Shown here one piece after another: positions 1 to 48,302 of a stretch of 48,302 nt of DNA. This DNA comes from a virus. Taxonomy: Duplodnaviria > Heunggongvirae > Uroviricota > Caudoviricetes. Each line of letters begins with the position of its first letter. The first letter of the stretch is position 1. The DNA is taken from IMG/VR virus record IMGVR_UViG_3300045988_153358. One strand, written 5' to 3'. The translations under genes and the position numbers were made by a program. The notes under the pieces are model-generated. The model had not been told where the DNA came from. It did not search any database and saw nothing but the letters and a program-made list of their open reading frames with translations.

Positions 1-119
1 GGGCGACTGGCGATTCTTTATTAGTGAGCCGGAAATTATTTCAGTTGAGGATTTACCTCCCGGCTGGGGATTACTTCACGTTGTTAACGGAAGAGTACGG
101 AAAGTACATGGATGGCCCA
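1..119. repeat. terminal direct repeat: bases 1-119 identical to 48184-48302; indicates circular or terminally redundant genome (likely assembly overlap)
   Basis: exact identity of the two window ends read directly. Confidence 0.9.
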
Positions 120-690: not shown

Positions 691-1031
691 GCTGTAGTGA
701 GAATCCATGCGATTACGAGCAGTATTCAGATATTCAGAGCGGGTAATGAAGCACATACAACCGAAAACATGGCAGAAACTGGACTCTATGGGAGCTAAGT
801 TGGAGAAGATTACTCAACTTAAGCAGTGGCATATCGGCGAATATTATGGAAGTCCTGGTCGGGATGTTCGGTTGGTAAAAAGTTGAACATTGTTTTTTTA
901 TTGATCGATTAACCACGATATGAAGGTTTTTTTTATGGAAAAACCTTGTTTTAGATGGTAACTGGGTGTAGTGTTTCATTTAACGTAGTAAAACTGCGTT
1001 AAGCGATTACCGCGTAATTTGTTGCTTTATG

Positions 1032-1063
1032 AAGCCCTGCCTTTTTCGGCGGGGCTTTTTTTT
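1032..1063 (+). terminator. Rho-independent terminator-like hairpin immediately upstream of the lysis genes
   Basis: 10-bp GC-rich stem AAGCCCTGCC/GGCGGGGCTT (one mismatch) followed by a T-run. Confidence 0.6.
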
Positions 1064-2852: not shown

Positions 2853-2928
2853 GGCCCCTTAGCTCAGTGGTTAGAGCAGGCGACTCATAATCGCACGGTC
2901 ATCGGTTCAAATCCGGTAGGGGCCACCA
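2853..2928 (+). tRNA. tRNA with anticodon CAT (Met elongator type, or Ile if lysidine-modified), includes 3-prime CCA
   Basis: cloverleaf folded by hand: 7-bp acceptor stem GGCCCCT/AGGGGCC, D-arm GCTC/GAGC, anticodon loop CTCATAA, T-arm ATCGG/CCGGT with TTCAAAT loop. Confidence 0.85.
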
Positions 2929-3236
2929 ATTCACTCTCACACATAAAGATAAGCGCGGTGGAGTTACTTCCTTCGTGCTCATCTTTATGCGTGCCTGGTG
3001 CGCATTTCGGGCGAACGTGGGGCTAAGTTACAGGCAGGGCCTGTTATCCGCAAAGGGGTAAAAGCTGGAGCGGCACGGAACTGTAGCCGTGTTACCAAAA
3101 CAGCGTTGTCGGGCGATATCCGGCACACAACAGGCAAGGGCATTAATCAGTCTGGTTAGTGCCCTTTTCGTTGCGTCTGCTGTAGAGCTGGCCAGCGTTA
3201 TGACTGCCGGAGATAAGCGCCGGAGGCACAACTAAC

Positions 3237-3824
3237 ATGGAGGCAATTGCATTGTTTAATCTGATTTATGCAGATCCCCCCTGGGAATACAAAGATAAGT
3301 GTAAGGATGGGAATCGTGGAGCTGGTTTTAAGTATCCAACGATGAAAGCTGAGGATATTGCTCGTATTCCTGTCTGGCAGCTTGCTAATCCTGAATCGTG
3401 TTTGTTGGCCATGTGGTGGGTTCCGACTCAGCCAGAAGAAGCGTTGCTGGTGGTGAAAGCATGGGGATTCAGGCTTATGACCATGAAGGGCTTCACATGG
3501 AACAAATGTGGTAGCCGACAACCAGATAAGCTGGTGATGGGGATGGGGCATATGACTCGTGCAAACAGTGAAGATTGCTTGTTTGCGGTAAAAGGCAAAT
3601 TGCCGACCCGCCTTGATGCGGGGATCATTCAGTCGTTTACATCGCCTCGTCTGGAGCATTCTCGGAAGCCTGATGTGGTTCGTGACAAGCTGGTAAGGCT
3701 GTTAGGTGATGTTCCTCGTATTGAGCTGTTTGCTCGCGGTGATTTACCTGATGGTTGGCATGGCTGGGGCAACCAGTGCAATGGAGGTATCCAGTTGCAT
3801 GATGCTCTCTGGCAAGTGGCATAG
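3237..3824 (+). CDS. MT-A70 family N6-adenine DNA methyltransferase
   Basis: DPPW catalytic motif (IYADPPWEY). Confidence 0.8.
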   Translation: MEAIALFNLIYADPPWEYKDKCKDGNRGAGFKYPTMKAEDIARIPVWQLANPESCLLAMWWVPTQPEEALLVVKAWGFRLMTMKGFTWNKCGSRQPDKLVMGMGHMTRANSEDCLFAVKGKLPTRLDAGIIQSFTSPRLEHSRKPDVVRDKLVRLLGDVPRIELFARGDLPDGWHGWGNQCNGGIQLHDALWQVA

Positions 3825-3936
3825 AATTATATAATTATAGATTTATATAAAAAGTGCTTTACAGGTGGGAAAAAATTTCCTATGGTTATACCCGAAACCG
3901 AGCGATACCCGCCCTGGTTAAACCGGAGATAACCCG
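3821..3936 (+). promoter_or_regulatory. promoter-leader cassette copy 1: AT-rich upstream element, TTTACA, 17-nt spacer, TATGGT, conserved leader with GGAG ribosome-binding site
   Basis: 118/119 identical to 35286-35404 and about 100 nt identical to 44816-44918. Confidence 0.7.
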
Positions 3937-4206
3937 ATGAAAGTACAAGACCGTGAAGTAGTAAAAAACCTCCTGCAATACCTGACCTCAAAAAACCTGA
4001 CGGGCAGCGTTGAGTTCCGTGAAGCGTTAAAACATTTCAACGTCACTACGGTTTATCGTTGGGAAAACAAACATTCTGAAAGACCGTATGTGGTGGATGT
4101 TTTTGCGCCTGATATTGAGTGCGGTTTTGAGCGCCATTCATTCAAAAAGAAACATTCCGCTGATGTTTTTTGTGAGGTTGTATGTGCGGCAGGAGATGAT
4201 GAGTGA
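3937..4206 (+). CDS. hypothetical protein (89 aa), first gene after cassette copy 1
   Basis: ORF track; conserved leader and ribosome-binding site. Confidence 0.6.
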   Translation: MKVQDREVVKNLLQYLTSKNLTGSVEFREALKHFNVTTVYRWENKHSERPYVVDVFAPDIECGFERHSFKKKHSADVFCEVVCAAGDDE

Positions 4207-4403
4207 TGCGTATTTCCTTCAAACGTGCGACTGAGCAGCAACGCAAAGAGTTCCTGGCTGATGATGTTGCGGCCGTTTATGACCTCATGAAAGAGGTTGT
4301 GGAATCAGGAAACTACACGGCGGCAAAGATGCTTAAACTGCAATTCTTGCTGGGCGACCTGAAATACAAATCCGAAGTTGTCGCCGGACGACGCGAGCAT
4401 TAA
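4203..4403 (+). CDS. hypothetical protein (66 aa)
   Basis: ORF track; start overlaps upstream stop. Confidence 0.5.
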   Translation: MMRISFKRATEQQRKEFLADDVAAVYDLMKEVVESGNYTAAKMLKLQFLLGDLKYKSEVVAGRREH

Positions 4404-4426
4404 ACCGTAACGATAACGAACAACGA

Positions 4427-4452
4427 GCCTCGGCAATTGCCGGGGCTTTTTT
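4427..4452 (+). terminator. Rho-independent terminator
   Basis: GCCTCGGC/GCCGGGGC stem then TTTTTT. Confidence 0.6.
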
Positions 4453-4477
4453 ACATCCAGACAAAGGAGAACATGGG

Positions 4478-4933
4478 ATGCCTTCGACAAGCACCAAAAA
4501 AGAAATGGCGGTTAGTGATGTGCTTTACGCGCTTTCGACTATATGTGACGGAGCAATGATGAGGATGAAAGTCCTCCATGAAGCATACGGAAAAAGTCAC
4601 GATGAGGCAGCTAAAGAATGCCTGAATGAGATTGTGGACTTCATTGATAGCCATCGGTCGCTGATAGCTCTCGATAACCATCCGCAAGCCGAAGAATGCC
4701 AGAAGCGCGAGTATAAAACGATATATGGGAATAAGTTCTTCTGTCTAAGCGAGTTGGCTGCAAAGGTGGCCGACATTCTGGAGAACAACGGCGGTCGAAT
4801 GCATCAGGTTAGCTATCTGGCTGAATATGAATCTCTAATCATGTTAGTTGATCATTTAGTTGATACAGGAGCTTTACAGCTCAACTGCCTAAGGCTATCT
4901 GGTCACCCGATAAAAATGAATGGAAGGATATAA
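4478..4933 (+). CDS. hypothetical protein (151 aa)
   Basis: ORF track; AGGAG 8 nt upstream of ATG. Confidence 0.6.
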   Translation: MPSTSTKKEMAVSDVLYALSTICDGAMMRMKVLHEAYGKSHDEAAKECLNEIVDFIDSHRSLIALDNHPQAEECQKREYKTIYGNKFFCLSELAAKVADILENNGGRMHQVSYLAEYESLIMLVDHLVDTGALQLNCLRLSGHPIKMNGRI

Positions 4934-4935
4934 CC

Positions 4936-5142
4936 GTGGACTTGCCTGGTGATTTGTTCTGGTTACCGCTTCCAATAAGAGATTTGTTGGTATTTCTGGC
5001 TGGCGCTTACGTCTGGAGAAAAGCGAAAGACACCTCGTTATCTTTGAGGTTTGTCTTGGCTATATCGATAGGAAACGCAATTGGTACGGCGTATCTCTTG
5101 ATATTACTGGAGGTATTCATTGGAAAATGGATAGTTTCATGA
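4936..5142 (+). CDS. small membrane protein (68 aa), GTG start
   Basis: GGAAGGA Shine-Dalgarno; two hydrophobic segments. Confidence 0.45.
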   Translation: MDLPGDLFWLPLPIRDLLVFLAGAYVWRKAKDTSLSLRFVLAISIGNAIGTAYLLILLEVFIGKWIVS

Positions 5143-5291
5143 ATGGTGTTGGCATTTTTCTGATGGTTGTGGCCGTGTGTTTTTGTATCTCGCTGGTGGT
5201 TATCGCTGGTGTCCTGTGGCGCATCTTAGTGGCGCAGAGGGCTTTTCGGCTTAAGCGGGAGCAAATGCGCCTTGATTTATATCGAAAGTAA
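5139..5291 (+). CDS. small hydrophobic peptide (50 aa, one transmembrane helix and basic C-terminus); below the ORF-track cutoff
   Basis: ATG overlaps upstream TGA (ATGA); translation MNGVGIFLMVVAVCFCISLVVIAGVLWRILVAQRAFRLKREQMRLDLYRK; terminator follows. Confidence 0.4.
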   Translation: MNGVGIFLMVVAVCFCISLVVIAGVLWRILVAQRAFRLKREQMRLDLYRK

Positions 5292-5299
5292 CTCTTACA

Positions 5300-5325
5300 G
5301 CCTCGCGGTGTCGCGGGGCTTTTTA
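5300..5325 (+). terminator. Rho-independent terminator
   Basis: GCCTCGCG/CGCGGGGC stem followed by TTTTT. Confidence 0.6.
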
Positions 5326-5340
5326 TTTTCAGGTGATGTT

Positions 5341-5751
5341 ATGGAAAAGAAAGAAGATAAACCGATTGCCATTGGTGCAGAGTCTGTTCCGTTTAAGTTT
5401 GAATTATCCCAACTGGTAACAATGCGTATCAGTGAAGAGTGGGGAGAAGTTCAAGCCCGTGCTCAGTATGCAAATGGCGAAAACCAGTATCTGATTCACT
5501 ATCAGGCGGCTGATGGCCGTGCTACCACAGAGTGGTTCGGTGAGTCGATGCTGATTGCGATGGAGGATAAACGTCATCCTGGCTGCCCTGTTTTTGCCTG
5601 TATTGATTTGCCAGAAGGCGCGGTACTTGAAGACGACAAAGAAGAATGGTCGCCTGATGGCGAACTTGTCATTACCGGAATCGTGGATGGTAAGCCGGAA
5701 TATTCCCGTATTGAGGTAAATAACGGCCACATCTGTTTGATCCCTGCGTAA
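5341..5751 (+). CDS. hypothetical protein (136 aa)
   Basis: internal ATG with AGGTGA Shine-Dalgarno downstream of the terminator. Confidence 0.55.
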   Translation: MEKKEDKPIAIGAESVPFKFELSQLVTMRISEEWGEVQARAQYANGENQYLIHYQAADGRATTEWFGESMLIAMEDKRHPGCPVFACIDLPEGAVLEDDKEEWSPDGELVITGIVDGKPEYSRIEVNNGHICLIPA

Positions 5752-5985
5752 CGCATTACAGCAGCTCTTGTGCTAATCAGGGGCTGCGATAATGCGCAAA
5801 CCAAAGCTGCCTCATTAACTCCAGCTCGCTGTGGAGTTAATGCTGGTGGCTTTTTTATTACTGGAAGGTGGGCGACCGCCGTCAGTTGCGACCTGACGAC
5901 AGTCATTCATACCCACAGGGTGCCGTGGATACAAACCGAGGCCCACTTGCTTGCACAAGCGAGGGGATTTTAGCGGATAAACGGC

Positions 5986-6609
5986 ATGACAAAACATCTT
6001 AATGTGGTTTCTTTACCACTTTCTGTGTTGATTGGTTATGAAAAGAACGCTCGCACACACTCCGTGGAGCAGGTAGATCAGATTGTTGCCAGCATACAGG
6101 AGTACGGATGGACTAATCCGATCCTGATAGACGAGAACAACGTTGTAATTGCTGGTCATGGTCGAATTGCTGCGGCCACTCAGTTGGGGATGGATGATGT
6201 TCCCTGCATTGTTCTGGCTGGGCTAACGGAGAATCAGAAGAAGGCATATCGTCTGGCCGACAACCGTATTCCGCTGAATGCTGGTTGGGATGAAGAGTTG
6301 TTAAGCGCGGAGCTTGCAGATCTTGCGGCCGATGATTTTGCTCTGGACTCAATTGGTTTTACTCAGCGCGAACTGGATAACTTATTGAGTGCGGCGGTCT
6401 ACGATGACACAGAGGGTATGGATATCCCATTTGAGAAGGATGAGGCCAAATCAGGCGTAAAAGTTCAGTACCTGTCATTTGGAGGTCATAAAATCCCGGC
6501 AACGGATGAGGAAGCGGATCGTTTTGACTGCGCGGTGTCTCGTTATGTTGATGATAATGGCAGCTATATCGGATTTGTATCCGCATTGCTGGCTGGGGAG
6601 GTGTGCTGA
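5986..6609 (+). CDS. ParB-like nuclease domain protein (copy 1)
   Basis: ParB N-terminal domain motifs (IAGHGR, KKAYRLADN); paralog of 9275-9865. Confidence 0.75.
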   Translation: MTKHLNVVSLPLSVLIGYEKNARTHSVEQVDQIVASIQEYGWTNPILIDENNVVIAGHGRIAAATQLGMDDVPCIVLAGLTENQKKAYRLADNRIPLNAGWDEELLSAELADLAADDFALDSIGFTQRELDNLLSAAVYDDTEGMDIPFEKDEAKSGVKVQYLSFGGHKIPATDEEADRFDCAVSRYVDDNGSYIGFVSALLAGEVC

Positions 6610-7982
6610 TGCTTCACCTGAATTACGACATAACGCACCTACGCGGCGCGGAATATAACCCGCGTTTTATCGGTGAGGATGATCTTGCGAGGCTGGCGGA
6701 AAGCGTCAGGGAGCTGGGGCTTGTGAAGCCATTGATAGTGCGCGGCGATTTGCTGGTGGCGGGACACCAAAGGACGAAGGCGCTACGTAAGTTGGGAATA
6801 ACGCGTGCTGCGGTGTATGTGTTGCCCTGTGAAACGACGGTATACGACGAAGTACGGTTTAACCAACTGCATAACGGAACGGATTTTGATAGCGGAGATG
6901 AGCGTTGCAGGGTGTCCGGTCTGGAAGATAAGCATGGTTTTGTTCAGGTATCGGCAAGCCAGATCTCAGGCAATATGCGCGCGAAAATGGCATATGTTCG
7001 AAAGAACATAGCGGAACTGGTTATCAAGTATGGTCCGTGGGGTGGTTGTGTTGCTACTCAGTCTGGTGAGGTTATTCACTGTGCTCAGTATGCATTAGCA
7101 GCGAAAATGACGCGCACACCGCTAACGGTGTTTGTGATCCCTGATGTTGAGAAGGAAAAATACCAAAGTTATCTGAATAAAACTTATGGTGTATTTGAGT
7201 ATTCTCATCTGGAGAAAACAACATACATCCAGACGTATGCGCAGCTTATGCGGTTGCGTAATGGTGGCAGCCTGAAATCAAACCTGTATGAGTCGTTGAT
7301 CCTCCCGATCATTGCCAAGACGCCAAGAGGAATTGATTTTGGTTCGGGGCAGGGAGACTACGCGCGAATGCTCAGGGCAAAGGGATATAACCTGCATGAT
7401 CTCGAGCTTTTCCGCCGTAAGGGCGCTGGAAACACTCTGGATAGGACCGCAACAAACCGGATGATTGATACGCTGGTGGACGACTTAAAAACGCGAGGGC
7501 GTTACGACTACGTGATTTGCGATAGCGTTTTGAACTCGGTCGATAGTGTCGAGGCTGAATGGTCTGTTCTGACGGTTCTGAAAGGCCTGTGTAAAGCTGG
7601 TGGGTCAATATTCTTTTCTGGTCGTAGCCGTGGAGAGCTGGAAACAGTCCTGAAGCAAACACAAGCGGCGAGTTCCAAAAGCCGGCTTTATTTTATTGAT
7701 CATAACGGTTTTACCGCGTTGTACCGGAAGGGGCACTGGTTTTACCAGAAGTTTCACTCTGATGATGAAGTGAAGCAGTTGTGTCGTGTACATGGTTTCA
7801 GGATTAAGCGGTCAATATTCAACTGTAAGAGCTGGTATTTGCACGTCATTAACGATGATTCCCTTAGTTGGGCGAGTCTGGAGAAAGCTGTTCGTTTTGA
7901 GTTTGAGTTGCCGTTGCCTGGTGGTTCAACAATCGGACGATCTGATGATGTGCTGGCGGCTTTCCGGCCGCTGATTAAGTAG
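6609..7982 (+). CDS. ParB-like N-terminal domain fused to a class I SAM-dependent methyltransferase-like domain
   Basis: N-terminal LVAGHQR ParB-like motif; downstream DFGSGQG, DYVICDSVL and LCKAGGSIFFS resemble methyltransferase motifs I-III; no DPPY/NPPY motif. Confidence 0.6.
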   Translation: MLHLNYDITHLRGAEYNPRFIGEDDLARLAESVRELGLVKPLIVRGDLLVAGHQRTKALRKLGITRAAVYVLPCETTVYDEVRFNQLHNGTDFDSGDERCRVSGLEDKHGFVQVSASQISGNMRAKMAYVRKNIAELVIKYGPWGGCVATQSGEVIHCAQYALAAKMTRTPLTVFVIPDVEKEKYQSYLNKTYGVFEYSHLEKTTYIQTYAQLMRLRNGGSLKSNLYESLILPIIAKTPRGIDFGSGQGDYARMLRAKGYNLHDLELFRRKGAGNTLDRTATNRMIDTLVDDLKTRGRYDYVICDSVLNSVDSVEAEWSVLTVLKGLCKAGGSIFFSGRSRGELETVLKQTQAASSKSRLYFIDHNGFTALYRKGHWFYQKFHSDDEVKQLCRVHGFRIKRSIFNCKSWYLHVINDDSLSWASLEKAVRFEFELPLPGGSTIGRSDDVLAAFRPLIK

Positions 7983-9274: not shown

Positions 9275-9865
9275 ATGGCTCTAAAAATCGAATATTTACC
9301 AGTCGGTAAGTTGCTCAGATATGCCAAAAATTCACGGACTCATTCAGATGAGCAAGTTGAACAGTTGGTGAACAGTATCCGTGAGTTCGGTTTCACTAAT
9401 CCTGTGCTGATCGATGAAAAGAATGAACTGATTGCGGGGCATGGGCGGCTTGCAGCAGCCGAAATTCTGGAAATGGATAAAGTTCCGGCGATTCGGTTGA
9501 GTAACCTTTCTGAAAAACAGAAGAAGGCTTACAGGATTGCAGATAACAAGCTGGCTTTAAATGCTGGCTGGGATATGCAGCTTCTGGCCGAAGAAGTCAA
9601 AGAGTTAATGGATGATGATTTTGATATTGATCTGCTTGGGTTTAATGATGCAGAGCTTGACGAAATGTTAAGCGATGAACAGCCGCAGGAAGAAGACGAT
9701 AATTCTTCCCCTGTTGTTCAAATTAAGTACCTGGCTATTGATAAAGAACGTATTCCCGCGACGGATATGGAAATTGCATTGTTGCTGGATGTTTATCGTC
9801 AGTACCACGACGCGCATGAAACGCATGAGGGATTTGTTCAGTATCTTGCTAATGGTTGCAAGTAA
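9275..9865 (+). CDS. ParB-like nuclease domain protein (copy 2)
   Basis: same motif layout as 5986-6609 (NSRTHS, IAGHGR, KKAYRIADN, LNAGWD). Confidence 0.75.
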   Translation: MALKIEYLPVGKLLRYAKNSRTHSDEQVEQLVNSIREFGFTNPVLIDEKNELIAGHGRLAAAEILEMDKVPAIRLSNLSEKQKKAYRIADNKLALNAGWDMQLLAEEVKELMDDDFDIDLLGFNDAELDEMLSDEQPQEEDDNSSPVVQIKYLAIDKERIPATDMEIALLLDVYRQYHDAHETHEGFVQYLANGCK

Positions 9866-23363: not shown

Positions 23364-23574
23364 TTATAGAACGGTTCAAGGGGACTCATGGGATAGCATC
23401 GCGTTAAAGTTGTATGGTAATGAGTACCTGTCTTATCTTCTTATTGATGCTAATACTGAGCACCGCTTTACGGTGCTTTTTTCTGCGGGAATTATTCTTA
23501 AAGTTCCTGATGCTCCGGTTATGCCAATATCAGTAAACAATTTGCCTCCGTGGAGACGCAATAGTGTTACGTAA
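23356..23574 (+). CDS. tail protein X-like (LysM-like), TTG start
   Basis: 72 aa with VQGDSWDSIALKLYG LysM-like pattern as in P2 gpX; GGAG Shine-Dalgarno. Confidence 0.7.
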   Translation: MDDYRTVQGDSWDSIALKLYGNEYLSYLLIDANTEHRFTVLFSAGIILKVPDAPVMPISVNNLPPWRRNSVT

Positions 23575-35280: not shown

Positions 35281-35285
35281 CGCTC

Positions 35286-35401
35286 ATAGAATTATATAAT
35301 TATAGATTTATATAAAAAGTGCTTTACAGGTGGGAAAAAATTTCCTAAGGTTATACCCGAAACCGAGCGATACCCGCCCTGGTTAAACCGGAGATAACCC
35401 G
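35286..35401 (+). promoter_or_regulatory. promoter-leader cassette copy 2
   Basis: 118/119 identical to 3821-3939; the single mismatch is in the candidate -10 (TAAGGT versus TATGGT). Confidence 0.7.
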
Positions 35402-35782
35402 ATGAGCATGATTAAAATCCGCAAAAACGCTTTCCTTAAAATTCAAACTATCCTGGCTGGTTCTGTTGGCGTGATTTGCCGTTCTTCTTCAAGCCGCATC
35501 GATGACGGCTACGATGATGAGTATCGTTTGTCCTCGTGCGATGAGGCTTTAACCTGGCTGAAGGAGAATCAGGAACGTGCCCAGGTATATCTGGAAACAG
35601 AGAACGGCAATCAGATGCTCCGTATTAGCGGTCGTTATGGATTTGAAACCACATTCATGGCCTATTTTAATCAGGCTTACTTTGACAAGGAGTTGGCCTG
35701 GTACACTGATCGCATGAGCAAAAGCGAGCCAGCCCCGATTACACCGCCGAACGATAAACCATTTTTATTCCTCGTTAAGTAA
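35402..35782 (+). CDS. hypothetical protein (126 aa)
   Basis: ORF track; conserved leader and ribosome-binding site. Confidence 0.6.
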   Translation: MSMIKIRKNAFLKIQTILAGSVGVICRSSSSRIDDGYDDEYRLSSCDEALTWLKENQERAQVYLETENGNQMLRISGRYGFETTFMAYFNQAYFDKELAWYTDRMSKSEPAPITPPNDKPFLFLVK

Positions 35783-37494: not shown

Positions 37495-38694
37495 TTATGG
37501 TCTGCTCTTCTGTGCCAGCTTATCAGCACATGTTTTTATCAGATCCTGTAGTGTCCTGGCTGGCAGGTTTGCATCCAGTACGCTGAGTATGCTGTTGTGA
37601 TCTGCTTGGTCGACTACTTTGCCTGTCGGTGGTAGTAGCTTGAGCTGAGGATTCAGGTTTTCGTCAAAGCTGATAAGTGCTCTGGCGTTTCTGAGCAGAT
37701 CAAGAAGTAAGGCTGATATCACATTTTCCTGAGTCATTGCTGACAGATTTAGCGCCGCTTTGGTTTTCCCTGTTGCCTTGTCAAACTCCTTGATTAGTTC
37801 CTTCCTGTAGTTCGGTTCCGTTAATAGCCGATTATGCTCTGTTGCCGCGCGGATAATCGTTTTTTCCTGGTACAGTCGTTTAGCCAGATCACGCTCGTAC
37901 TGTGTTTTTAACACGCTGCTGATAGCGTTAAAGGCTTCAATGTAGGCCAGCTTGATATCTTTCACGCCTGGACCGTCGATACTTTCCATGAGCAAGGTAA
38001 ATCCGTCTTTTGTCATGCGATAGATTGTTATTTCGCGGTCGCTTCCTTCCAGCGGTCGTTGCTCTTTAAAGAAATGACGTGCCGCAGCTGTGCGAGGAAT
38101 GCGTAACGCATCGATGGCCATAACGATGGAATTGTTTGTGGTGCTGAATGCCTGGGCAACATCGGCTGAGGTTGTGAGTGGCTCGTTGTTGCACACCTTA
38201 ATGTAAAACATCGGTTTGGCGTTGAGCGTATCGACAACCTCACGAGCATTGTTTGGCGAGACGGTTACGGTCGCGGCCGTTTGTGTGTTCTGGCTGAAAT
38301 AGCAGTCTTCCAGCCGTTCGAACACATCCCAAGCCTGATCGGTTTCAAGCATTTTGGCGTGACGTGCAGCCCCGCGTTCTGTCCAGAGAATGAGGGAGCG
38401 GGCTTTCGGGGAAATTTGTAACCCTCTTAAAGATGGTTGCACATTTTGTGAGTTACTTAAAGTAACCCGCAAATTTTGTGAGTGACTTAAAGTCACTCGC
38501 AAAGTTTTTAACTCATCGCCAGCCACTTTGAAAAAATGCTTTCCTTCAATAAAGCGGTTTGCGTTACGTGAGTAATTTTTTTTGATGTTATCAACGTCTG
38601 TGCCGTATAGCTTTGCCAGTAGTTCAGTAGTGATAACGGGGATCTGGTTATGCAGGATAGGCTGTAGGGTGTTAACGGTCGGAAGCGTTTTCAT
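37495..38694 (-). CDS. antirepressor-like protein (ORF6N/KilA-type N-terminus, Rha-like C-terminal part)
   Basis: ITTELLAKLYGTDVDNIKKNYSRNANRF motif; downstream of a small overlapping ORF and structured RNA region. Confidence 0.65.
   Translation of the reverse strand: MKTLPTVNTLQPILHNQIPVITTELLAKLYGTDVDNIKKNYSRNANRFIEGKHFFKVAGDELKTLRVTLSHSQNLRVTLSNSQNVQPSLRGLQISPKARSLILWTERGAARHAKMLETDQAWDVFERLEDCYFSQNTQTAATVTVSPNNAREVVDTLNAKPMFYIKVCNNEPLTTSADVAQAFSTTNNSIVMAIDALRIPRTAAARHFFKEQRPLEGSDREITIYRMTKDGFTLLMESIDGPGVKDIKLAYIEAFNAISSVLKTQYERDLAKRLYQEKTIIRAATEHNRLLTEPNYRKELIKEFDKATGKTKAALNLSAMTQENVISALLLDLLRNARALISFDENLNPQLKLLPPTGKVVDQADHNSILSVLDANLPARTLQDLIKTCADKLAQKSRP
38443..38502. repeat. two tandem 30-bp dyad-symmetric repeats inside the antirepressor gene
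   Basis: ATTTTGTGAGTTACTTAAAGTAACCCGCAA then ATTTTGTGAGTGACTTAAAGTCACTCGCAA; arms GTTAC/GTAAC versus GTGAC/GTCAC. Confidence 0.8.
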
Positions 38695-38882: not shown

Positions 38883-39046
38883 TGTGATGATTCCCTTAAA
38901 GGTTAAGGATACTCACCACCGTCAGGTTCCAATCATTGGGTGGTGAGACGTGCAGGGTTGGAACTACCGGACACAATGACGAACCGGCGAGTCTTACGAC
39001 TCCCCCGCACGCCCCACCATAATTTGGGTGTAGCAGTGCTTTACGC

Positions 39047-39150
39047 ATAAAAAAACCGCTAACGCGGTATGCGCCATTGTGTCTACGGGGTTCCAATCCC
39101 GACCGTAGATTTTGCTACGGCTCGGAAAGTGTCCACCAATGGCGCATTCA
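39047..39150 (-). ncRNA. candidate c4-like antisense sRNA (5-prime end not determined)
   Basis: minus-strand hairpin ACCGC-GUUA-GCGGU plus U7 at 39049-39068; stem CCGUAG/CUACGG; GAUUGGAACC element repeated in the leader at 38925-38936 and complementary to 38954-38964. Confidence 0.35.
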
Positions 39151-39638
39151 TGTCAATACGGCGGGATTTTAACAGAGACAACCACATAGCGTGGGTTTAT
39201 TGGTAGGCAGAAACAAAAAAACCGCCCTATTGAGGACGGTTCTTTCGTGCTGATCGGATTCGCGGTCCTTTCAGCATAACGTCGTTGTATAAACAACCAC
39301 GCAAGCACAAGCAGCAAGTTAATTTTACCCAAAAGGTAATAATAGTCCACTATTATGCTTCAAAAAATTGTGGTTCTTGTTGTGCCTGCAAACTCACAGA
39401 TTGTGGGTAGGTTACTGATTTTGTGAAAATAAACGAGTTTTTTCGTTTAATTTCTTTCCTATTACTAATCTTAAAATAATCGTAAAATACCTGTGGACCT
39501 TCCCGCCGATTCGCACCCGGGCACCGACTTTAGGGGAGGATTCTCCGTTGCCGTACATGCAAGCACAAGCAGCCGTGCTTGCTCTCGCGTTGTTTTCGTC
39601 GGTGGGGATGCCGTGAAACGGCCTGTAAGGGCCATACA

Positions 39639-39761
39639 ATGAAAAAATACTGTATGTGTATTTTTATCGTTGTTACTGGGGCTTTGTTTACGCCACATGG
39701 GGAGGGTTGGAAGATTACTGATAACGCTCTGAATGTGACGATAAACATTAGCAGCAAGTAG
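39639..39761 (+). CDS. possible small hydrophobic peptide (40 aa)
   Basis: AAGGG Shine-Dalgarno 8 nt upstream; translation MKKYCMCIFIVVTGALFTPHGEGWKITDNALNVTINISSK; strong terminator follows. Confidence 0.3.
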   Translation: MKKYCMCIFIVVTGALFTPHGEGWKITDNALNVTINISSK

Positions 39762-39766
39762 CGATT

Positions 39767-39790
39767 AGGCCCCTTCGGGGGCCTTTTTTA
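39767..39790 (+). terminator. Rho-independent terminator with UUCG tetraloop
   Basis: AGGCCCC-TTCG-GGGGCCT followed by TTTTT. Confidence 0.75.
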
Positions 39791-40010: not shown

Positions 40011-40259
40011 TTACTTCTGGTTGTATTGAGCCTTGAGTAACTCAAAAGATTTTGTCAGCACTTCTTTCAATGACATATCCATTGAGCTGGCGAACGTTTT
40101 GTACTCGCGTTTAAATTCAGGGTCGACGTTAAACGCCATTTGTGCCCCACCTGATTTGGTTCTGGTTGGCGTTTCAGTCGGGTCGAAAACCTGCGGTTGT
40201 TCGATCGATGGCGGTACGCCTTTGCTGTTCTTCTTTGGTGGTTTTGATGGTCCGGCCAT
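40011..40259 (-). CDS. ParG-like ribbon-helix-helix partition/centromere-binding protein
   Basis: 82 aa; disordered basic N-terminus, C-terminal RHH-like segment; adjacent to ParA. Confidence 0.55.
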   Translation of the reverse strand: MAGPSKPPKKNSKGVPPSIEQPQVFDPTETPTRTKSGGAQMAFNVDPEFKREYKTFASSMDMSLKEVLTKSFELLKAQYNQK

Positions 40260-40302
40260 GTGTATCCCCTCTTATATAAATCTATAAATCTATAATTATA
40301 TA
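40260..40302. promoter_or_regulatory. AT-rich repeat motif between parA stop and parG start
   Basis: tandem TATAAATC units; same motif family as other intergenic sites. Confidence 0.5.
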
Positions 40303-40956
40303 TTACGCGGCAGTAGTCAGAGCCTCAAGCTGGTTGATAATCCCCTGAATAACGTCGTCTGCCTTTTTGCGTGGCGCAACGTATGAGCATTCAATGAGGC
40401 TTAAGCCCTTATCCTGAGCTTTGCTCAGAGCTGGCTTGTGGGGAATGTACTTATCGACAACAAAGTATGGCGTATTAGCCAGGTACTCTTGGGCTTCAAT
40501 GTAGTCGGCTTCGTTTTCAGCCGCGCCTGAGAACACCATGCAAATTTTCTTGATTGGCACACCCTTTTTAACGATGCCGTGAGCTGTGTTAACGGTGGTT
40601 TCTAGGTCATCGGTAGAGAATCTGGTTGGCAAAATAACCATATCCAGAAATTCAGAGAGCTTCGGTACTGATTCAGATGCGTAGGCACCGCCATCGACGA
40701 TAACCAGGTCGTATACTTCTGATTCGATGATTTTCTGGACTTGTGATGGCGTGCCGCACGGCTGCGCCGCGATTGCAGGTTCGATATTGTTGGCCATTCT
40801 GCGTTGTACCCAACGCGTTACCGTTCCGTTAAGCACATCCATATCGATCAGGCATACATTCCAGCCGGCCTTTGCATAAGCAACTGCTAAAGCACGGGCA
40901 ATTGTTGATTTGGTTACGCCGCCTTTTCCGTTGAAAATACCTACAGAGATAGTCAT
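40303..40956 (-). CDS. parA: ParA/MinD-type partition ATPase
   Basis: deviant Walker A GIFNGKGGVTKST; start at second ATG chosen because of GGAG Shine-Dalgarno. Confidence 0.8.
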   Translation of the reverse strand: MTISVGIFNGKGGVTKSTIARALAVAYAKAGWNVCLIDMDVLNGTVTRWVQRRMANNIEPAIAAQPCGTPSQVQKIIESEVYDLVIVDGGAYASESVPKLSEFLDMVILPTRFSTDDLETTVNTAHGIVKKGVPIKKICMVFSGAAENEADYIEAQEYLANTPYFVVDKYIPHKPALSKAQDKGLSLIECSYVAPRKKADDVIQGIINQLEALTTAA

Positions 40957-40974
40957 TTGTCGAGACTCCATGTG

Positions 40975-41080
40975 TTTGGTTATATAATTCTATAAATCTA
41001 TATTTATAGAACGAGGTAAGCATAACCAACTTTTTGGCGGATGAAAAGCGTTTTATATAATTATATAAATCTATAATCAT
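40975..41080. promoter_or_regulatory. parA upstream region with two further copies of the AT-rich motif
   Basis: 40981-41010 and 41053-41077 carry TATATAATT...TATAAATCTATA-type elements. Confidence 0.5.
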
Positions 41081-44807: not shown

Positions 44808-44924
44808 ATCTATAAATATATAATTATAGATTTATATAAAAAGTGCTTTACAGGTGGGAAAAAATTTCCTATGGTTATACCCGAAACCGAGCGATACCCG
44901 CCCTGGTTAAACCGGAGAAATCTG
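44808..44924 (+). promoter_or_regulatory. promoter-leader cassette copy 3
   Basis: about 100 nt identical to copies 1 and 2, diverging only in the last 6-7 nt before the ATG. Confidence 0.7.
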
Positions 44925-45992
44925 ATGAATAAACAAGTAATTATTTCTGACTGGATCAACAACCCTAACAGCCTGTTAAGCACTGATACTGGCTACCTAT
45001 TACGCCATGTTAATGGTCGTATGGTCAAAAGCGATGAGCACGAAACCTTTTTCTTTGTTGAAGACGATGGGCGTATCTATGAGGATGGTTACTCTTATGA
45101 AGCCCAAACTGGTTGTATCCCTGCGGAGCTGGTGGATGTAACAGAAGATCTGCGCAAAGCATGGCTTGAACAGCAGCAGCGCGGAGATGATTACGTAAAC
45201 ACCTATCAGGAACGCCAGAACGCGCGTCTTGCCCGATATATTGCTCGTGCAGAAAAAGCCAGAAAAGAAGGTGCGGTAGCGCATAAGCGAGCGCATGACC
45301 TGTTGGATGTGATCCCGTTAGGCCAGCCGATTTTAGTTGACCATTATAGCGCGAAAGGCCATCGCCGCCGTTTGTCTAAAGCTGATGCGTTATTCAGAAA
45401 AGCGTTTGTTGAATGCGAAAGTAAAGCATCACACTACGAGAGCAAAGCCGCAGGTGTTGGTCGTAATGGAATTTCGTCTGATGATCCTGATGCGCTATTT
45501 AAGTTGCTTCGTAAGCTGCAAGGCTGCATGAAGTCACACGTCAAAATGAAGGCCGCAAATAAGGCCATTCGCAAATACAAAAAAGACCAAATACAGCAGC
45601 TTTCTGCATTAATCGATCTCAGGTTTACAGAAAGCGAAGCCAAAGAGTTACTGGCCGGAGATTTCTGTGGGCGCATCGGATTCCCTTCATACGCACTGAG
45701 CAACAATAACGCCGAAATCAAACGACTACAGAGCCGTATTAAGGAGCTTGAATCGGTCAAGTCTGTAACAGGAGCACAGCGCGAAGAATACGACGGCTTT
45801 TCTATGGAGATAGATCCAGAGGATAACCGCATCCTGTTTTATTTCCCTGGCAAACCAGAGGCAAACATTCGTTCGCTGCTTAAATCACGCGCCTTTAAGT
45901 GGAGTCCAACCCGTAATGCATGGGTTCGCAAGATTACTCCAAACGCCCTGGCTGATGCCCGATATCTGAAAGAATCGCTATTGAAAGCCTGA
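44925..45992 (+). CDS. hypothetical protein (355 aa), first gene after cassette copy 3
   Basis: ATG at 44925 at the same leader position as the other copies; the track ORF start at 44871 lies inside the promoter. Confidence 0.6.
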   Translation: MNKQVIISDWINNPNSLLSTDTGYLLRHVNGRMVKSDEHETFFFVEDDGRIYEDGYSYEAQTGCIPAELVDVTEDLRKAWLEQQQRGDDYVNTYQERQNARLARYIARAEKARKEGAVAHKRAHDLLDVIPLGQPILVDHYSAKGHRRRLSKADALFRKAFVECESKASHYESKAAGVGRNGISSDDPDALFKLLRKLQGCMKSHVKMKAANKAIRKYKKDQIQQLSALIDLRFTESEAKELLAGDFCGRIGFPSYALSNNNAEIKRLQSRIKELESVKSVTGAQREEYDGFSMEIDPEDNRILFYFPGKPEANIRSLLKSRAFKWSPTRNAWVRKITPNALADARYLKESLLKA

Positions 45993-46069
45993 CAGTAAGC
46001 CTACGGCGGGATGTCTCCCGCCGTATATAGAATTATATATTTATATAAATGTATAAGGACGCCTCGACA

Positions 46070-47953: not shown

Positions 47954-48302
47954 ATGGCGTTAACACACCGCGAACTCTGTCAGATTGCGTACAAGTTCCT
48001 TAAGCGCAACGGGTTCAAGGTTTGCTTTCATGACCGCTTTATAGCTGTAACCAGTACCGGAGAACAGCCAGATGCTATGGGATTCAGAAATTCAGCATCA
48101 TGCTTGATAGAGGCGAAGTGTTCTCGTGCTGACTTGTTGGCAGATAGAAAAAAGCGTTTCCGTAAAAATCCCTCACTTGGCATGGGCGACTGGCGATTCT
48201 TTATTAGTGAGCCGGAAATTATTTCAGTTGAGGATTTACCTCCCGGCTGGGGATTACTTCACGTTGTTAACGGAAGAGTACGGAAAGTACATGGATGGCC
48301 CA
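47954..48302 (+). CDS. 5-prime portion of wrap-around ORF (171 aa in total, continues at 2-286)
   Basis: ATG at 47954; no stop before window end; PD-x12-EAK motif. Confidence 0.45.
   Translation, partial: MALTHRELCQIAYKFLKRNGFKVCFHDRFIAVTSTGEQPDAMGFRNSASCLIEAKCSRADLLADRKKRFRKNPSLGMGDWRFFISEPEIISVEDLPPGWGLLHVVNGRVRKVHGWP

What the first reader, a model, noticed from the sequence alone, without database searches (positions are those of the whole stretch)
3937..5751. Accessory operon of unknown small proteins downstream of cassette copy 1
Six ORFs of 50-151 aa, none recognisable, include two small membrane proteins (68 aa and an unannotated 50 aa with a translationally coupled ATGA start) and are punctuated by three intrinsic terminators. 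The location between the methyltransferase and the ParB cluster and the shared cassette promoter suggest co-regulated accessory functions such as anti-defence or host takeover.
Basis: inference. Interest (0 to 1): 0.5.

Follow-up and report, generated by a model that had tools for sequence, protein, structure and literature searches.

The report
Small accessory gene block in phage-plasmid
The six small genes are real, fast-evolving and dispensable passenger genes of an E. coli phage that lives as a plasmid, sitting behind a shared promoter and split by three transcription stops; what they do is still unknown, so this is fairly ordinary phage "dark matter".

Summary
Window 3937-5751 carries six tiled + strand genes of 89, 65, 151, 68, 50 and 136 aa. 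Two are small membrane proteins joined by an ATGA overlap. Three strong intrinsic terminators split the block into three modules; the third lies just outside the given coordinates.

The window is a complete ~48.2 kb E. coli phage-plasmid (RepA, ParA, P2-type tail). The block lies between an MT-A70 methylase and the ParB/packaging genes.

Gene order, terminators and the upstream 121-nt promoter cassette are kept in Salmonella relatives. There the six proteins are only 36-53% identical, against 62-93% for most other conserved genes. Within E. coli the block is a mosaic of deletions, frameshifts and replacements, including in isolated Yersinia phages, so it is dispensable for lytic growth.

No protein matches Pfam, NCBIfam, PADLOC or any solved structure. 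Four fall in PHROGs of unknown function. AlphaFold models were poor.

The cassette promoter shares its upstream AT-rich 8-bp boxes and core design with the parA promoter. My best reading is a moron-like accessory operon, attenuated by its terminators and tied to the plasmid partition regulon. Anti-defence is possible but has no direct support.

The parts
3820..3940 (+). Promoter cassette copy 1. AT-rich 8-bp-phased TATAA boxes at about 3826-3850; -35 TTTACA 3858-3863; -10 TATGGT 3881-3886; an invariant leader of about 45 nt; SD GGAGA 3925-3929; ATG 3937.
   Evidence: Three copies in the window (3820, 35285, 44809), 90-99% identical. About 88-90% identical at three syntenic sites in Salmonella plasmid CP053324. 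Promoter-like hit. Boxes enriched, 15 found against 0.09 expected.
3937..4206 (+). ORF1, 89 aa, soluble, with an acidic C-terminus (GDDE). PHROG 6143, unknown function.
   Evidence: Variant codons 4 synonymous: 1 non-synonymous. 45% identical over 64 aligned residues (query residues 1-59) to the Salmonella homologue. Removed by a 245-nt in-frame deletion in L001 and L008. Replaced by a non-homologous 86-aa gene in pMB9272_3.
4206..4403 (+). ORF2, 65 aa, basic and probably helical. PHROG 6621, unknown function. The constant member of module 1.
   Evidence: Variant codons 5 synonymous: 2 non-synonymous, with 6 of 7 changes at third positions. Present in every relative examined, as alleles about 36% identical.
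4425..4455 (+). Intrinsic terminator T1: 10-bp GC-rich stem, 4-nt loop, U-run. The SD of ORF3 follows about 10 nt after the U-run.
   Evidence: z = -4.9. Kept in Salmonella relatives.
4478..4933 (+). ORF3, 151 aa, helical. PHROG 14707. A shortened form of a 251-323 aa protein found in the Salmonella relatives.
   Evidence: AlphaFold pLDDT 53. The most common E. coli variant shown carries a ~175-nt deletion that leaves a 99-aa product. dN/dS about 0.9.
4936..5142 (+). ORF4, 68 aa, small membrane protein. GTG start; SD AAGGA lies inside the end of ORF3.
   Evidence: Full-length (at least 80% coverage) in 58 of 59 PLSDB relatives. 53% identical to a homologue in the S. Weltevreden plasmid. Absent from the S. 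salamae plasmid. Not called by PGAP.
5139..5291 (+). ORF5, 50 aa, single-pass membrane protein with a basic C-terminal tail. ATGA overlap with ORF4.
   Evidence: 44% identical to the S. salamae homologue in the syntenic position; a 50-aa syntenic counterpart in S. Weltevreden seen as an ORF only. Frameshifted in vB_YpM_41 and C-terminally replaced in p48.
5299..5329 (+). Intrinsic terminator T2. The SD of ORF6 (GGTG 5332-5335) starts right after its U-run.
   Evidence: z = -4.2. A terminator followed directly by an SD is kept at the same place in both Salmonella relatives, with a different stem sequence.
5341..5751 (+). ORF6, 136 aa, acidic. A beta-rich core at about residues 18-98 plus a C-terminal extension. 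PHROG 1935. Homologue of phiP27 L33.
   Evidence: Variant codons 13 synonymous: 12 non-synonymous, dN/dS 0.43. Replaced by a DUF2513 gene in pRHB23-C02_4 and pP136-7.
5752..5862 (+). Two-hairpin region: hairpin A 5752-5796, then terminator T3 hairpin 5803-5853 with a U-run.
   Evidence: z = -6.2 for the whole region. The same two-hairpin design, with different stem sequences, occurs in both Salmonella relatives.

Best explanation
This is a conserved but plastic, moron-like accessory gene block of a phage-plasmid. It is inserted in the long rightward transcription unit between the lysis/tRNA/MT-A70 genes and the ParB/packaging genes.

Proposed transcription (inferred):
- A sigma-70-type promoter in the 121-nt cassette drives ORF1-ORF2.
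- Each of the three terminators passes only a fraction of transcripts, so expression falls in steps: ORF1-2, then ORF3-4-5, then ORF6. The terminators also shield the packaging genes from this promoter.
- During lytic growth, late transcription arriving from upstream would read the whole block, provided it can pass the terminators.

Proposed regulation (inferred):
- The cassette promoter has the same upstream array of 8-bp-phased TATAA boxes and the same core design as the parA promoter.
- It is therefore probably controlled by the plasmid's small partition (centromere-binding) protein. That would make it active when the element enters a naive cell and damped once the plasmid state is established.

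Products:
- Six small proteins that are not needed for lytic growth and evolve fast.
- They most likely act on the host or on competing elements during establishment or carriage. ORF4 and ORF5 would act at the inner membrane. ORF2 is the conserved core of module 1.

Shown here: the genes, the terminators, the cassette, synteny, plasticity, rapid divergence, and the shared boxes. Inferred: promoter activity, control by the partition protein, graded read-through, and any cellular target.
For: Genome identity: complete phage-plasmid with RepA, ParA and a P2-type tail.

The genes are real.

Promoter: the cassette hit (3858-3886) is the only + strand promoter-like site anywhere in or next to the block, 3700-6000.

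Terminators:
- All three are strong and are kept in Salmonella relatives with changed stem sequences.
- Among the strongest + strand terminator-like sites (at least 8 stem pairs, at least 5 G-C, a clean T-run), those inside the rightward gene block outside this region are only 1031-1058 and 23458-23478. The block is therefore enriched for them.
- The SDs of ORF3 and ORF6 closely follow the U-runs of T1 and T2, in all lineages.

Plasticity: deletion of ORF1, deletion inside ORF3, frameshift of ORF5, insertion of a tail-fibre-assembly gene fragment, and replacement of ORF1 and of ORF6.

Divergence: 36-53% identity against 62-93% for most other conserved genes.

Boxes:
- 15 matches against 0.09 expected, confined to the three cassettes, three sites around parA and its 82-aa partner gene, and two other intergenic sites.
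- The same set of loci carries boxes in the Salmonella relative.
- The arrays align in register, and the parA promoter repeats the cassette layout: boxes, then -35 TTTTCA, 17 nt, -10 TATGCT.
- A 44%-identical ParA with a small partner protein on an unrelated conjugative plasmid has similar phased AT-rich boxes at the same two positions.
Against: - No transcript data exist. The promoter matches only 9 of 12 consensus positions, and such scans find fewer sites here than in shuffled sequence.
- The 82-aa candidate box-binding protein matches no known family. Its ribbon-helix-helix character rests on reading the sequence only.
- G+C content of the block (0.46-0.48) does not differ from its neighbours. 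The block is also present in diverged Salmonella relatives, so it is not a recent import as classic morons are.
- ORF3 and ORF5 show dN/dS near 1 within E. coli, which also fits decay.
- The ORF6 family in P2-like prophages has no promoter or terminator of its own and is plainly a late gene there.
- No antiterminator gene was recognised.
Confidence: 0.5

Rival explanations
1. One reading: early anti-defence or host-takeover genes. The products inhibit restriction or other host immunity, or shut down host functions, straight after DNA entry.
For: - The block is flanked by two DNA methyltransferase genes, MT-A70 and a ParB-methyltransferase fusion, which are typical self-protection functions.
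- The proteins are small, fast-evolving and swappable, as counter-defence genes often are.
- ORF6 is acidic (pI 4.5).
- A promoter held down by a plasmid-encoded repressor would fire on entry into a naive cell (inference).
Against: - No similarity to any characterised protein.
- Structure models were too poor to compare, and all fold searches gave E > 0.06.
- Only ORF1-2 lie before the first terminator.
- ORF6 relatives sit in late operons.
- Many natural variants lack intact ORF1, ORF3 or ORF5.
- No anti-defence HMM library was available to test.
Confidence: 0.2
2. Late-expressed passengers. The block has no meaningful promoter of its own and is made only as part of the late transcript. Its products give minor help with lysis timing, envelope events or particle release. 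ORF4/ORF5 would be membrane modulators and ORF6 a factor associated with the lysis/packaging junction.
For: - The block is co-oriented with, and lies between, the lysis and packaging genes, with no terminator between the MT-A70 gene and ORF1.
- ORF6 homologues directly follow the spanin genes in P2-like prophages, precede the small terminase gene in lambdoid prophages and phiP27, and follow the small terminase gene in ESSI2 phages.
- A strong terminator directly upstream of the holin gene (1031-1058) suggests a late transcript that resists termination and could also pass T1-T3.
Against: - The lysis cassette is already complete: two holin-family genes, endolysin, i-spanin and o-spanin.
- The lysis cassette was exchanged in the Salmonella relatives while this block was kept.
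- The 121-nt cassette, promoter-like elements included, is more conserved than the neighbouring coding sequence. That is hard to explain without a function.
- Bcep176 gp32, an ORF6-core homologue, lies among tiny ORFs with no lysis or packaging gene annotated nearby.
Confidence: 0.2
3. Mostly decaying, functionless remnants that persist because deleting them has no cost.
For: - dN/dS is about 0.9 for ORF3 and 1.3 for ORF5.
- Frameshifts, truncations and in-frame deletions are frequent.
- E. coli ORF3 is an internally shortened form of a longer Salmonella protein.
Against: - All six families stay open and syntenic across the E. coli-Salmonella divergence.
- ORF1, ORF2 and ORF6 show purifying selection.
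- ORF4 is full-length in 58 of 59 plasmids.
- Terminators and ribosome-binding sites are maintained.
Confidence: 0.1

Closest known systems
Morons of lambdoid phages (for example lambda bor, HK97 gp15), as defined by Hendrix and colleagues. Cited from my own knowledge.
   Same: Extra genes inserted between conserved late-gene modules. They are bounded by a sigma-70-like promoter and factor-independent terminators, dispensable for lytic growth and variable among relatives. The set includes small inner-membrane proteins.
   Different: There are three terminator-bounded modules but only one recognisable promoter. Base composition is not atypical. The block is syntenic even in Salmonella relatives, so it is old rather than recently acquired. 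Expression in the lysogen has not been shown.
Partition-protein regulons of plasmids: RK2 KorB with the kil/klc operons, pSM19035 omega, TP228 ParG. Cited from my own knowledge.
   Same: Short phased repeats, found at the par operon, recur upstream of several other promoters on the same replicon. This suggests one small partition protein co-regulates maintenance and accessory genes.
   Different: Binding has not been tested. The 82-aa protein matches no ParG, omega or KorB family. The element is a phage-plasmid, and the controlled genes are of unknown function.
phiP27 L33 / PHROG 1935 (ORF6), and PHROGs 6143, 6621 and 14707 (ORF1-3)
   Same: Clear sequence membership, E = 1e-49 to 1e-106. ORF6 is 80% identical to L33 over 96 residues.
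   Different: These families have no known function. ORF6 in the window carries an extra C-terminal segment of about 35 residues that many members lack.
Small phage superinfection-exclusion or immunity membrane proteins (T4 Imm, HK97 gp15). Cited from my own knowledge.
   Same: ORF4 and ORF5 are 50-68 aa inner-membrane-type proteins encoded in an accessory slot of a temperate element.
   Different: No sequence similarity. No evidence of expression in the lysogen. No exclusion phenotype has been tested.

Membership tests
Moron (promoter-gene-terminator insert in a late operon) | Lies between conserved late modules and varies among relatives | tested here: met
   It lies between the lysis/tRNA/MT-A70 genes and the ParB/terminase genes. 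Deletions, insertions and replacements occur in relatives.
Moron (promoter-gene-terminator insert in a late operon) | Own sigma-70 promoter | tested here: inconclusive
   There is one promoter-like site (9 of 12 consensus positions) inside a strongly conserved cassette. None precedes ORF3 or ORF6. No transcript data exist.
Moron (promoter-gene-terminator insert in a late operon) | Own factor-independent terminator | tested here: met
   T1, T2 and T3 have z-scores of -4.2 to -4.9, and no shuffle out of 200 folds as well. All three are kept in Salmonella relatives.
Moron (promoter-gene-terminator insert in a late operon) | Atypical base composition, indicating recent import | tested here: not met
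   G+C is 0.46-0.48, against 0.48-0.50 in the flanks. The block is syntenic in Salmonella relatives.
Moron (promoter-gene-terminator insert in a late operon) | Expressed from the repressed prophage | not testable with these tools
   Needs RNA-seq of a lysogen.
Characterised anti-defence proteins (Ocr, ArdA/ArdB/KlcA, Acr and similar) | Sequence or fold similarity to a characterised member | tested here: not met
   No curated-family hit in Pfam, NCBIfam or PHROG functional classes, and none to PDB sequences. Fold searches gave E > 0.06 on low-confidence models. Dedicated anti-defence HMM sets were not available.
Holin, antiholin or spanin (ORF4, ORF5) | Transmembrane segment(s) | tested here: met
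   Hydropathy maxima of 2.08 for ORF4 and 3.13 for ORF5.
Holin, antiholin or spanin (ORF4, ORF5) | Membership of a holin or spanin family, and a position inside the lysis cassette | tested here: not met
   No holin or spanin Pfam or PHROG hit. A complete lysis cassette lies at about 1077-2683, 2.3 kb upstream.
Type II toxin-antitoxin pair (ORF1-ORF2) | Two small overlapping genes with homology to toxin or antitoxin families | tested here: not met
   The overlap is present (GTGATG), but there are no Pfam, NCBIfam or PADLOC hits. ORF1 is freely deleted or replaced by an unrelated gene.
PHROG 1935 / phiP27 L33 family (ORF6) | Significant full-length profile match | tested here: met
   E = 1.4e-65, residues 1-121 against profile positions 1-116 of 116. 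80% identity to L33.

The most novel reading that the evidence does not exclude
The accessory block, together with the two other cassette-led genes (a 126-aa protein at 35402 and a DUF3560 protein at 44925), belongs to a conserved regulon run by the plasmid's small partition protein through phased TATAA boxes. Terminators meter out expression module by module. This would be a phage-plasmid counterpart of the RK2 kor regulon: it fires on entry into a new host and then falls quiet, and it carries establishment functions, possibly counter-defence or exclusion.
Probability: 0.25. Interest if true: 0.55.

Novelty: new member of a known kind. Interest (0 to 1): 0.3.

Why it matters
Phage-plasmids of this ~48 kb type occur in about 1.4% of complete E. 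coli genomes (76 of 5426), including the reference strain ATCC 25922, and in Salmonella, Klebsiella and as Yersinia phages. Their accessory genes are unstudied.

Showing that this block is conserved in order, fast-evolving and dispensable gives six small targets and natural knock-out variants for testing what such elements do to their hosts. The shared promoter boxes give a testable link between plasmid partition and accessory-gene control.

As it stands, it adds well-delimited hypothetical genes, not a new mechanism.

Tried and rejected
- **Family searches.** Pfam, NCBIfam, PADLOC and PHROGs on all six proteins gave only PHROGs of unknown function.
- **Solved structures.** Sequence and profile searches of PDB sequences gave nothing below E = 0.05.
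- **Structure prediction.** AlphaFold2 on ORF6 (37-sequence alignment) and ORF3 (9 sequences) gave mean pLDDT 50 and 53.
  - Foldseek against PDB and viral models gave no hit with E <= 0.001.
  - The SH3/Tudor-like and helix-turn-helix impressions are therefore not claimed.
- **Exhaustive HMMER search with ORF3.** It found only longer relatives (251-323 aa), of which the 251-aa form matches the S. salamae plasmid ORF3' and the 323-aa form resembles the S. Weltevreden one, plus one low-complexity false lead, P0107.
- **Small-RNA control.** I tested whether the invariant cassette leader is a target of the element's C4, isrK or ryfA-like RNAs. Duplex energies were no better than for shuffled leaders. 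The leader itself has no significant fold (z = -0.8), and Rfam finds nothing there.
- **Antiterminator.** I looked for a Q-type antiterminator among the genes upstream of the lysis cassette and recognised none.
- **Toxin-antitoxin pair for ORF1-ORF2.** Rejected: no homology, and ORF1 is freely lost or swapped.
- **ORF4/ORF5 as a second holin system.** Rejected: no family match, and a complete lysis cassette lies elsewhere.
- **'ORF6 is strictly lysis-associated'.** Weakened by Bcep176, where the homologue gp32 lies among tiny ORFs with no lysis or packaging gene annotated nearby.
- **Literature.** Searches for the relatives and for the RefSeq protein accessions found nothing on these genes.
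- **First substitution analysis.** It was confounded by non-homologous stretches in the alignment. I replaced it.
Full report
**What the window is**

Bases 1-119 repeat exactly at 48184-48302, so the window is a circular genome of about 48.18 kb written with an overlap.
- It is 97-99% identical over this region to 76 complete E. coli records. 215 of the 220 matched places are on plasmids of 47-49 kb.
- It is also close to three Yersinia phages, vB_YpM_39, 41 and 44.
- The RefSeq annotation of the closest plasmid shows RepA, ParA, a RelE/HTH toxin-antitoxin pair, an XRE-family transcriptional regulator (candidate repressor), terminase, portal, capsid and a P2-type contractile tail.

The element is therefore a phage-plasmid. 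PLSDB relatives also occur in Salmonella, Klebsiella, E. fergusonii and E. albertii.

**The observation**

The six + strand ORFs exist as described.
- ORF1 3937-4206, 89 aa.
- ORF2 4206-4403, 65 aa. It overlaps the ORF1 stop in GTGATG.
- ORF3 4478-4933, 151 aa.
- ORF4 4936-5142, 68 aa, GTG start 2 nt after the ORF3 stop.
- ORF5 5139-5291, 50 aa, ATGA overlap with ORF4.
- ORF6 5341-5751, 136 aa.

Shine-Dalgarno motifs precede ORF1, ORF3, ORF4 and ORF6 at 5-8 nt (sequence).

Three terminators are real: T1 at 4425-4448, T2 at 5299-5320 and T3 at 5803-5853. Each is followed by a U-run, has a z-score between -4.2 and -4.9, and folds better than all 200 shuffles. T3 lies beyond the stated end of the finding and is preceded by a second strong hairpin at 5752-5796.

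Hydropathy supports one very hydrophobic segment in ORF5. In ORF4 it supports one clear segment plus a weaker one.

**Are they genes?**

Two diverged Salmonella phage-plasmids keep the same order.
- CP053324 (S. salamae) has ORF1' (97 aa), ORF2' (64 aa), T1, ORF3' (251 aa), ORF5' (55 aa), T2, ORF6' (87 aa), then ParB.
- NZ_LN890526 (S. Weltevreden) in addition has an ORF4 homologue that is 53% identical.
- ORF4 is full-length in 58 of 59 PLSDB relatives, although PGAP usually does not call it.

Within the E. coli family I counted distinct variant codons as synonymous: non-synonymous.

| ORF | Synonymous : non-synonymous |
|---|---|
| ORF1 | 4 : 1 |
| ORF2 | 5 : 2 |
| ORF6 | 13 : 12 |
| ORF3 | 5 : 13 |
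| ORF4 | 6 : 12 |
| ORF5 | 3 : 4 |

Changes in ORF1, ORF2 and ORF6 fall mostly at third positions.

Against the more distant plasmid pMB9272_3, dN/dS differs sharply between the block and its flanks.

| Gene | dN/dS |
|---|---|
| MT-A70 | 0.12 |
| ParB | 0.18 |
| ORF6 | 0.43 |
| ORF3 | 0.86 |
| ORF5 | 1.3 |

All six are therefore protein-coding. ORF1, ORF2 and ORF6 are under clear constraint. ORF3, ORF4 and ORF5 are under weak constraint in the recent E. coli lineage.

**Recognisability**

No Pfam, NCBIfam or PADLOC family passes any curated threshold. No PDB sequence or profile match is better than E = 0.05.
- ORF1, 2, 3 and 6 belong to PHROGs 6143, 6621, 14707 and 1935, all of unknown function. 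ORF4 and ORF5 belong to none.
- ORF1, ORF2, ORF3 and ORF5 have no relatives outside this phage-plasmid family; no ORF4 search reached beyond the plasmid collection.
- An exhaustive HMMER search links ORF3 only to forms of 251-323 aa: the 251-aa one matches the S. salamae plasmid ORF3' and the 323-aa one resembles the S. Weltevreden ORF3'. The E. coli protein is an internally shortened version of these.
- ORF6 is broader. Its core of about 80 residues occurs in Escherichia, Salmonella, Enterobacter and Citrobacter prophages. It is also phiP27 L33, and more distant copies occur in Burkholderia and Bordetella phages.
- AlphaFold2 models were poor, pLDDT 50 for ORF6 and 53 for ORF3. Fold searches gave nothing significant.

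**Context and plasticity**

Upstream lie a complete lysis cassette, a tRNA with anticodon CAU and an MT-A70 methyltransferase. Downstream lie a ParB-like protein, a ParB-methyltransferase fusion and the packaging genes.

Within the E. coli family the block is a mosaic.
- A 245-nt in-frame deletion removes ORF1 and joins its first 8 codons to ORF2. This is seen in vB_YpM_41 and in an E. albertii plasmid.
- A deletion of about 175 nt truncates ORF3 to 99 aa. This is the most common variant among those listed (18 of 30 rows).
- An insertion of about 280 nt carrying a tail-fibre-assembly gene fragment follows ORF5 and fuses to ORF6.
- ORF5 is frameshifted in vB_YpM_41.
- ORF6 is replaced by a DUF2513 gene in two plasmids.
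- In pMB9272_3 the ORF1 slot holds an unrelated 86-aa gene, next to an ORF2 allele only 36% identical to the window's.

ORF2 is present in every relative examined. Phages deposited as isolates carry several of these lesions, so the block is not needed for lytic growth.

Across the whole genome, most proteins shared with the Salmonella relative are 62-93% identical. The block's proteins are 36-53% identical, among the lowest in the genome.

**Transcription signals**

The only + strand promoter-like site in or next to the block, 3700-6000, is TTTACA-17 nt-TATGGT at 3858-3886. It sits inside a 121-nt cassette present three times in the window.
- Copy 1 at 3820 leads ORF1.
- Copy 2 at 35285 leads a 126-aa protein.
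- Copy 3 at 44809 leads a DUF3560 protein.

The cassette runs through the leader and SD to the start codon. All three copies are kept at syntenic sites in the Salmonella plasmid at about 88-90% identity. That is more conserved than the adjacent MT-A70 protein, which is 76% identical.

No terminator separates the MT-A70 gene from the cassette. The SD of ORF3 lies about 10 nt after the U-run of T1, and the SD of ORF6 directly follows the U-run of T2. The same arrangement holds in the Salmonella relatives, whose stems differ in sequence. Modules 2 and 3 can therefore be expressed only by read-through.

Apart from a terminator just before the holin gene (1031-1058) and one at 23458, the rightward gene block outside this region has no other + strand terminator-like site of comparable strength (at least 8 stem pairs, at least 5 G-C).

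**Link to partition**

The upstream edge of each cassette is an array of 8-bp-phased boxes, TATAA-N3-TATAA.
- The motif occurs 15 times, against 0.09 expected.
- It is confined to the three cassettes, three sites flanking parA and the 82-aa gene downstream of it, a site upstream of the tRNA, and one at 46033.
- The same set of loci carries it in the Salmonella plasmid.
- The arrays align in register. The parA promoter region repeats the cassette layout: boxes, then TTTTCA, 17 nt, then TATGCT.
- An unrelated conjugative plasmid has a 44%-identical ParA and a roughly 40%-identical small partner protein. It carries similar phased AT-rich boxes at the corresponding two positions.

I infer that the small partner protein binds these boxes and that the cassette promoters belong to its regulon. 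The protein itself matches no family, and binding is untested.

**ORF6 context elsewhere**
- In P2-like Enterobacter prophages the homologue starts at the stop codon of the i-spanin gene and precedes gpR, with no promoter or terminator of its own.
- In lambdoid prophages and phiP27 it lies between the lysis genes and the small terminase or HNH gene.
- In ESSI2 phages it follows the small terminase gene.
- In Bcep176 it lies among tiny ORFs with no lysis or packaging gene annotated nearby.

It is therefore a widespread small phage domain. It is usually a late-operon passenger near the lysis/packaging junction, but not exclusively.

**Interpretation**

The best-supported reading is a moron-like, terminator-segmented accessory block.
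- It is driven by a cassette promoter that shares operator boxes with the partition operon.
- Its expression would be graded by read-through.
- Its products are dispensable and fast-evolving.

Its anti-defence or host-takeover suggestion remains possible but has no direct evidence. The rivals (purely late passengers with a lysis or packaging helper role; decaying remnants) are not excluded, and RNA mapping and deletion phenotypes would separate them.

None of this departs from known kinds of phage accessory regions. The gene families already sit in PHROGs as unknowns. Interest is modest, and the partition-box regulon is the most novel testable thread.

Noticed in passing
window 3820-3940, 35285-35405, 44809-44929; boxes also at 2694, 40275-40295, 40983-40995, 41053-41076, 46033-46056: A 121-nt promoter, leader and start-codon cassette occurs three times. 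Its TATAA-N3-TATAA boxes (15 found, 0.09 expected) are shared with the parA region. Both features are kept at syntenic loci in a Salmonella relative. This suggests a regulon controlled by the partition protein.
   Followed up: partly
window 40011-40259 (-) and 40303-40971 (-): A small ParA (222 aa) is followed by an 82-aa protein that matches no family. By eye, its C-terminal half looks like a ribbon-helix-helix centromere-binding protein. A homologous gene pair with similar AT-rich boxes sits on a conjugative cfr/IS26 plasmid (L024).
   Followed up: partly
window 38936-39024 (-), 39049-39121 (-), 39493-39789 (+): Rfam finds a C4 antisense RNA, an isrK-like RNA and a ryfA-like RNA next to the antirepressor-type gene at 37495-38694. 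This suggests a P1/P7-style immI control region.
   Followed up: no
window 1031-1058: A very strong intrinsic terminator lies directly upstream of the holin gene, after about 340 nt of non-coding sequence. The layout resembles lambda PR'-tR' and suggests late genes controlled by antitermination. No Q-like gene was recognised.
   Followed up: partly
window 2853-2928: A tRNA with anticodon CAU is called Met by ARAGORN but annotated tRNA-Ile in RefSeq relatives. It is preceded by a TATAA box array.
   Followed up: no
window 2929-3236: About 300 nt of apparently non-coding sequence lies between the tRNA and the MT-A70 gene and is conserved in the Salmonella relative: spurious ORFs on both strands there give 70-83% 'identity'. 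It could be a regulatory or RNA element.
   Followed up: no
window 5863-5985: The stretch between T3 and the ParB gene start is nearly invariant in the E. coli family and is conserved in Salmonella. It contains short inverted repeats (CGTCAG-N7-CTGACG; GCTTG-CA-CAAGC). It may be the control region of the packaging operon.
   Followed up: no
window 1-119 and 48184-48302: An exact 119-nt terminal duplication, most simply the overlap left by circular assembly. True genome length is about 48,183 bp.
   Followed up: yes
window 5986-6609, 6603-7982, 9275-9865: Three genes with ParB/Srx N-terminal domains lie upstream of the terminase genes. One is fused to a methyltransferase domain.
   Followed up: no
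L022 (NZ_CP103524.1) 2073-2406: In pMB9272_3, and in the Salmonella plasmids, the ORF2-ORF3 spacer is about 330 nt instead of 74 nt. In pMB9272_3 it also carries an extra terminator right after ORF2. The short E. coli spacer looks like a deletion derivative.
   Followed up: no
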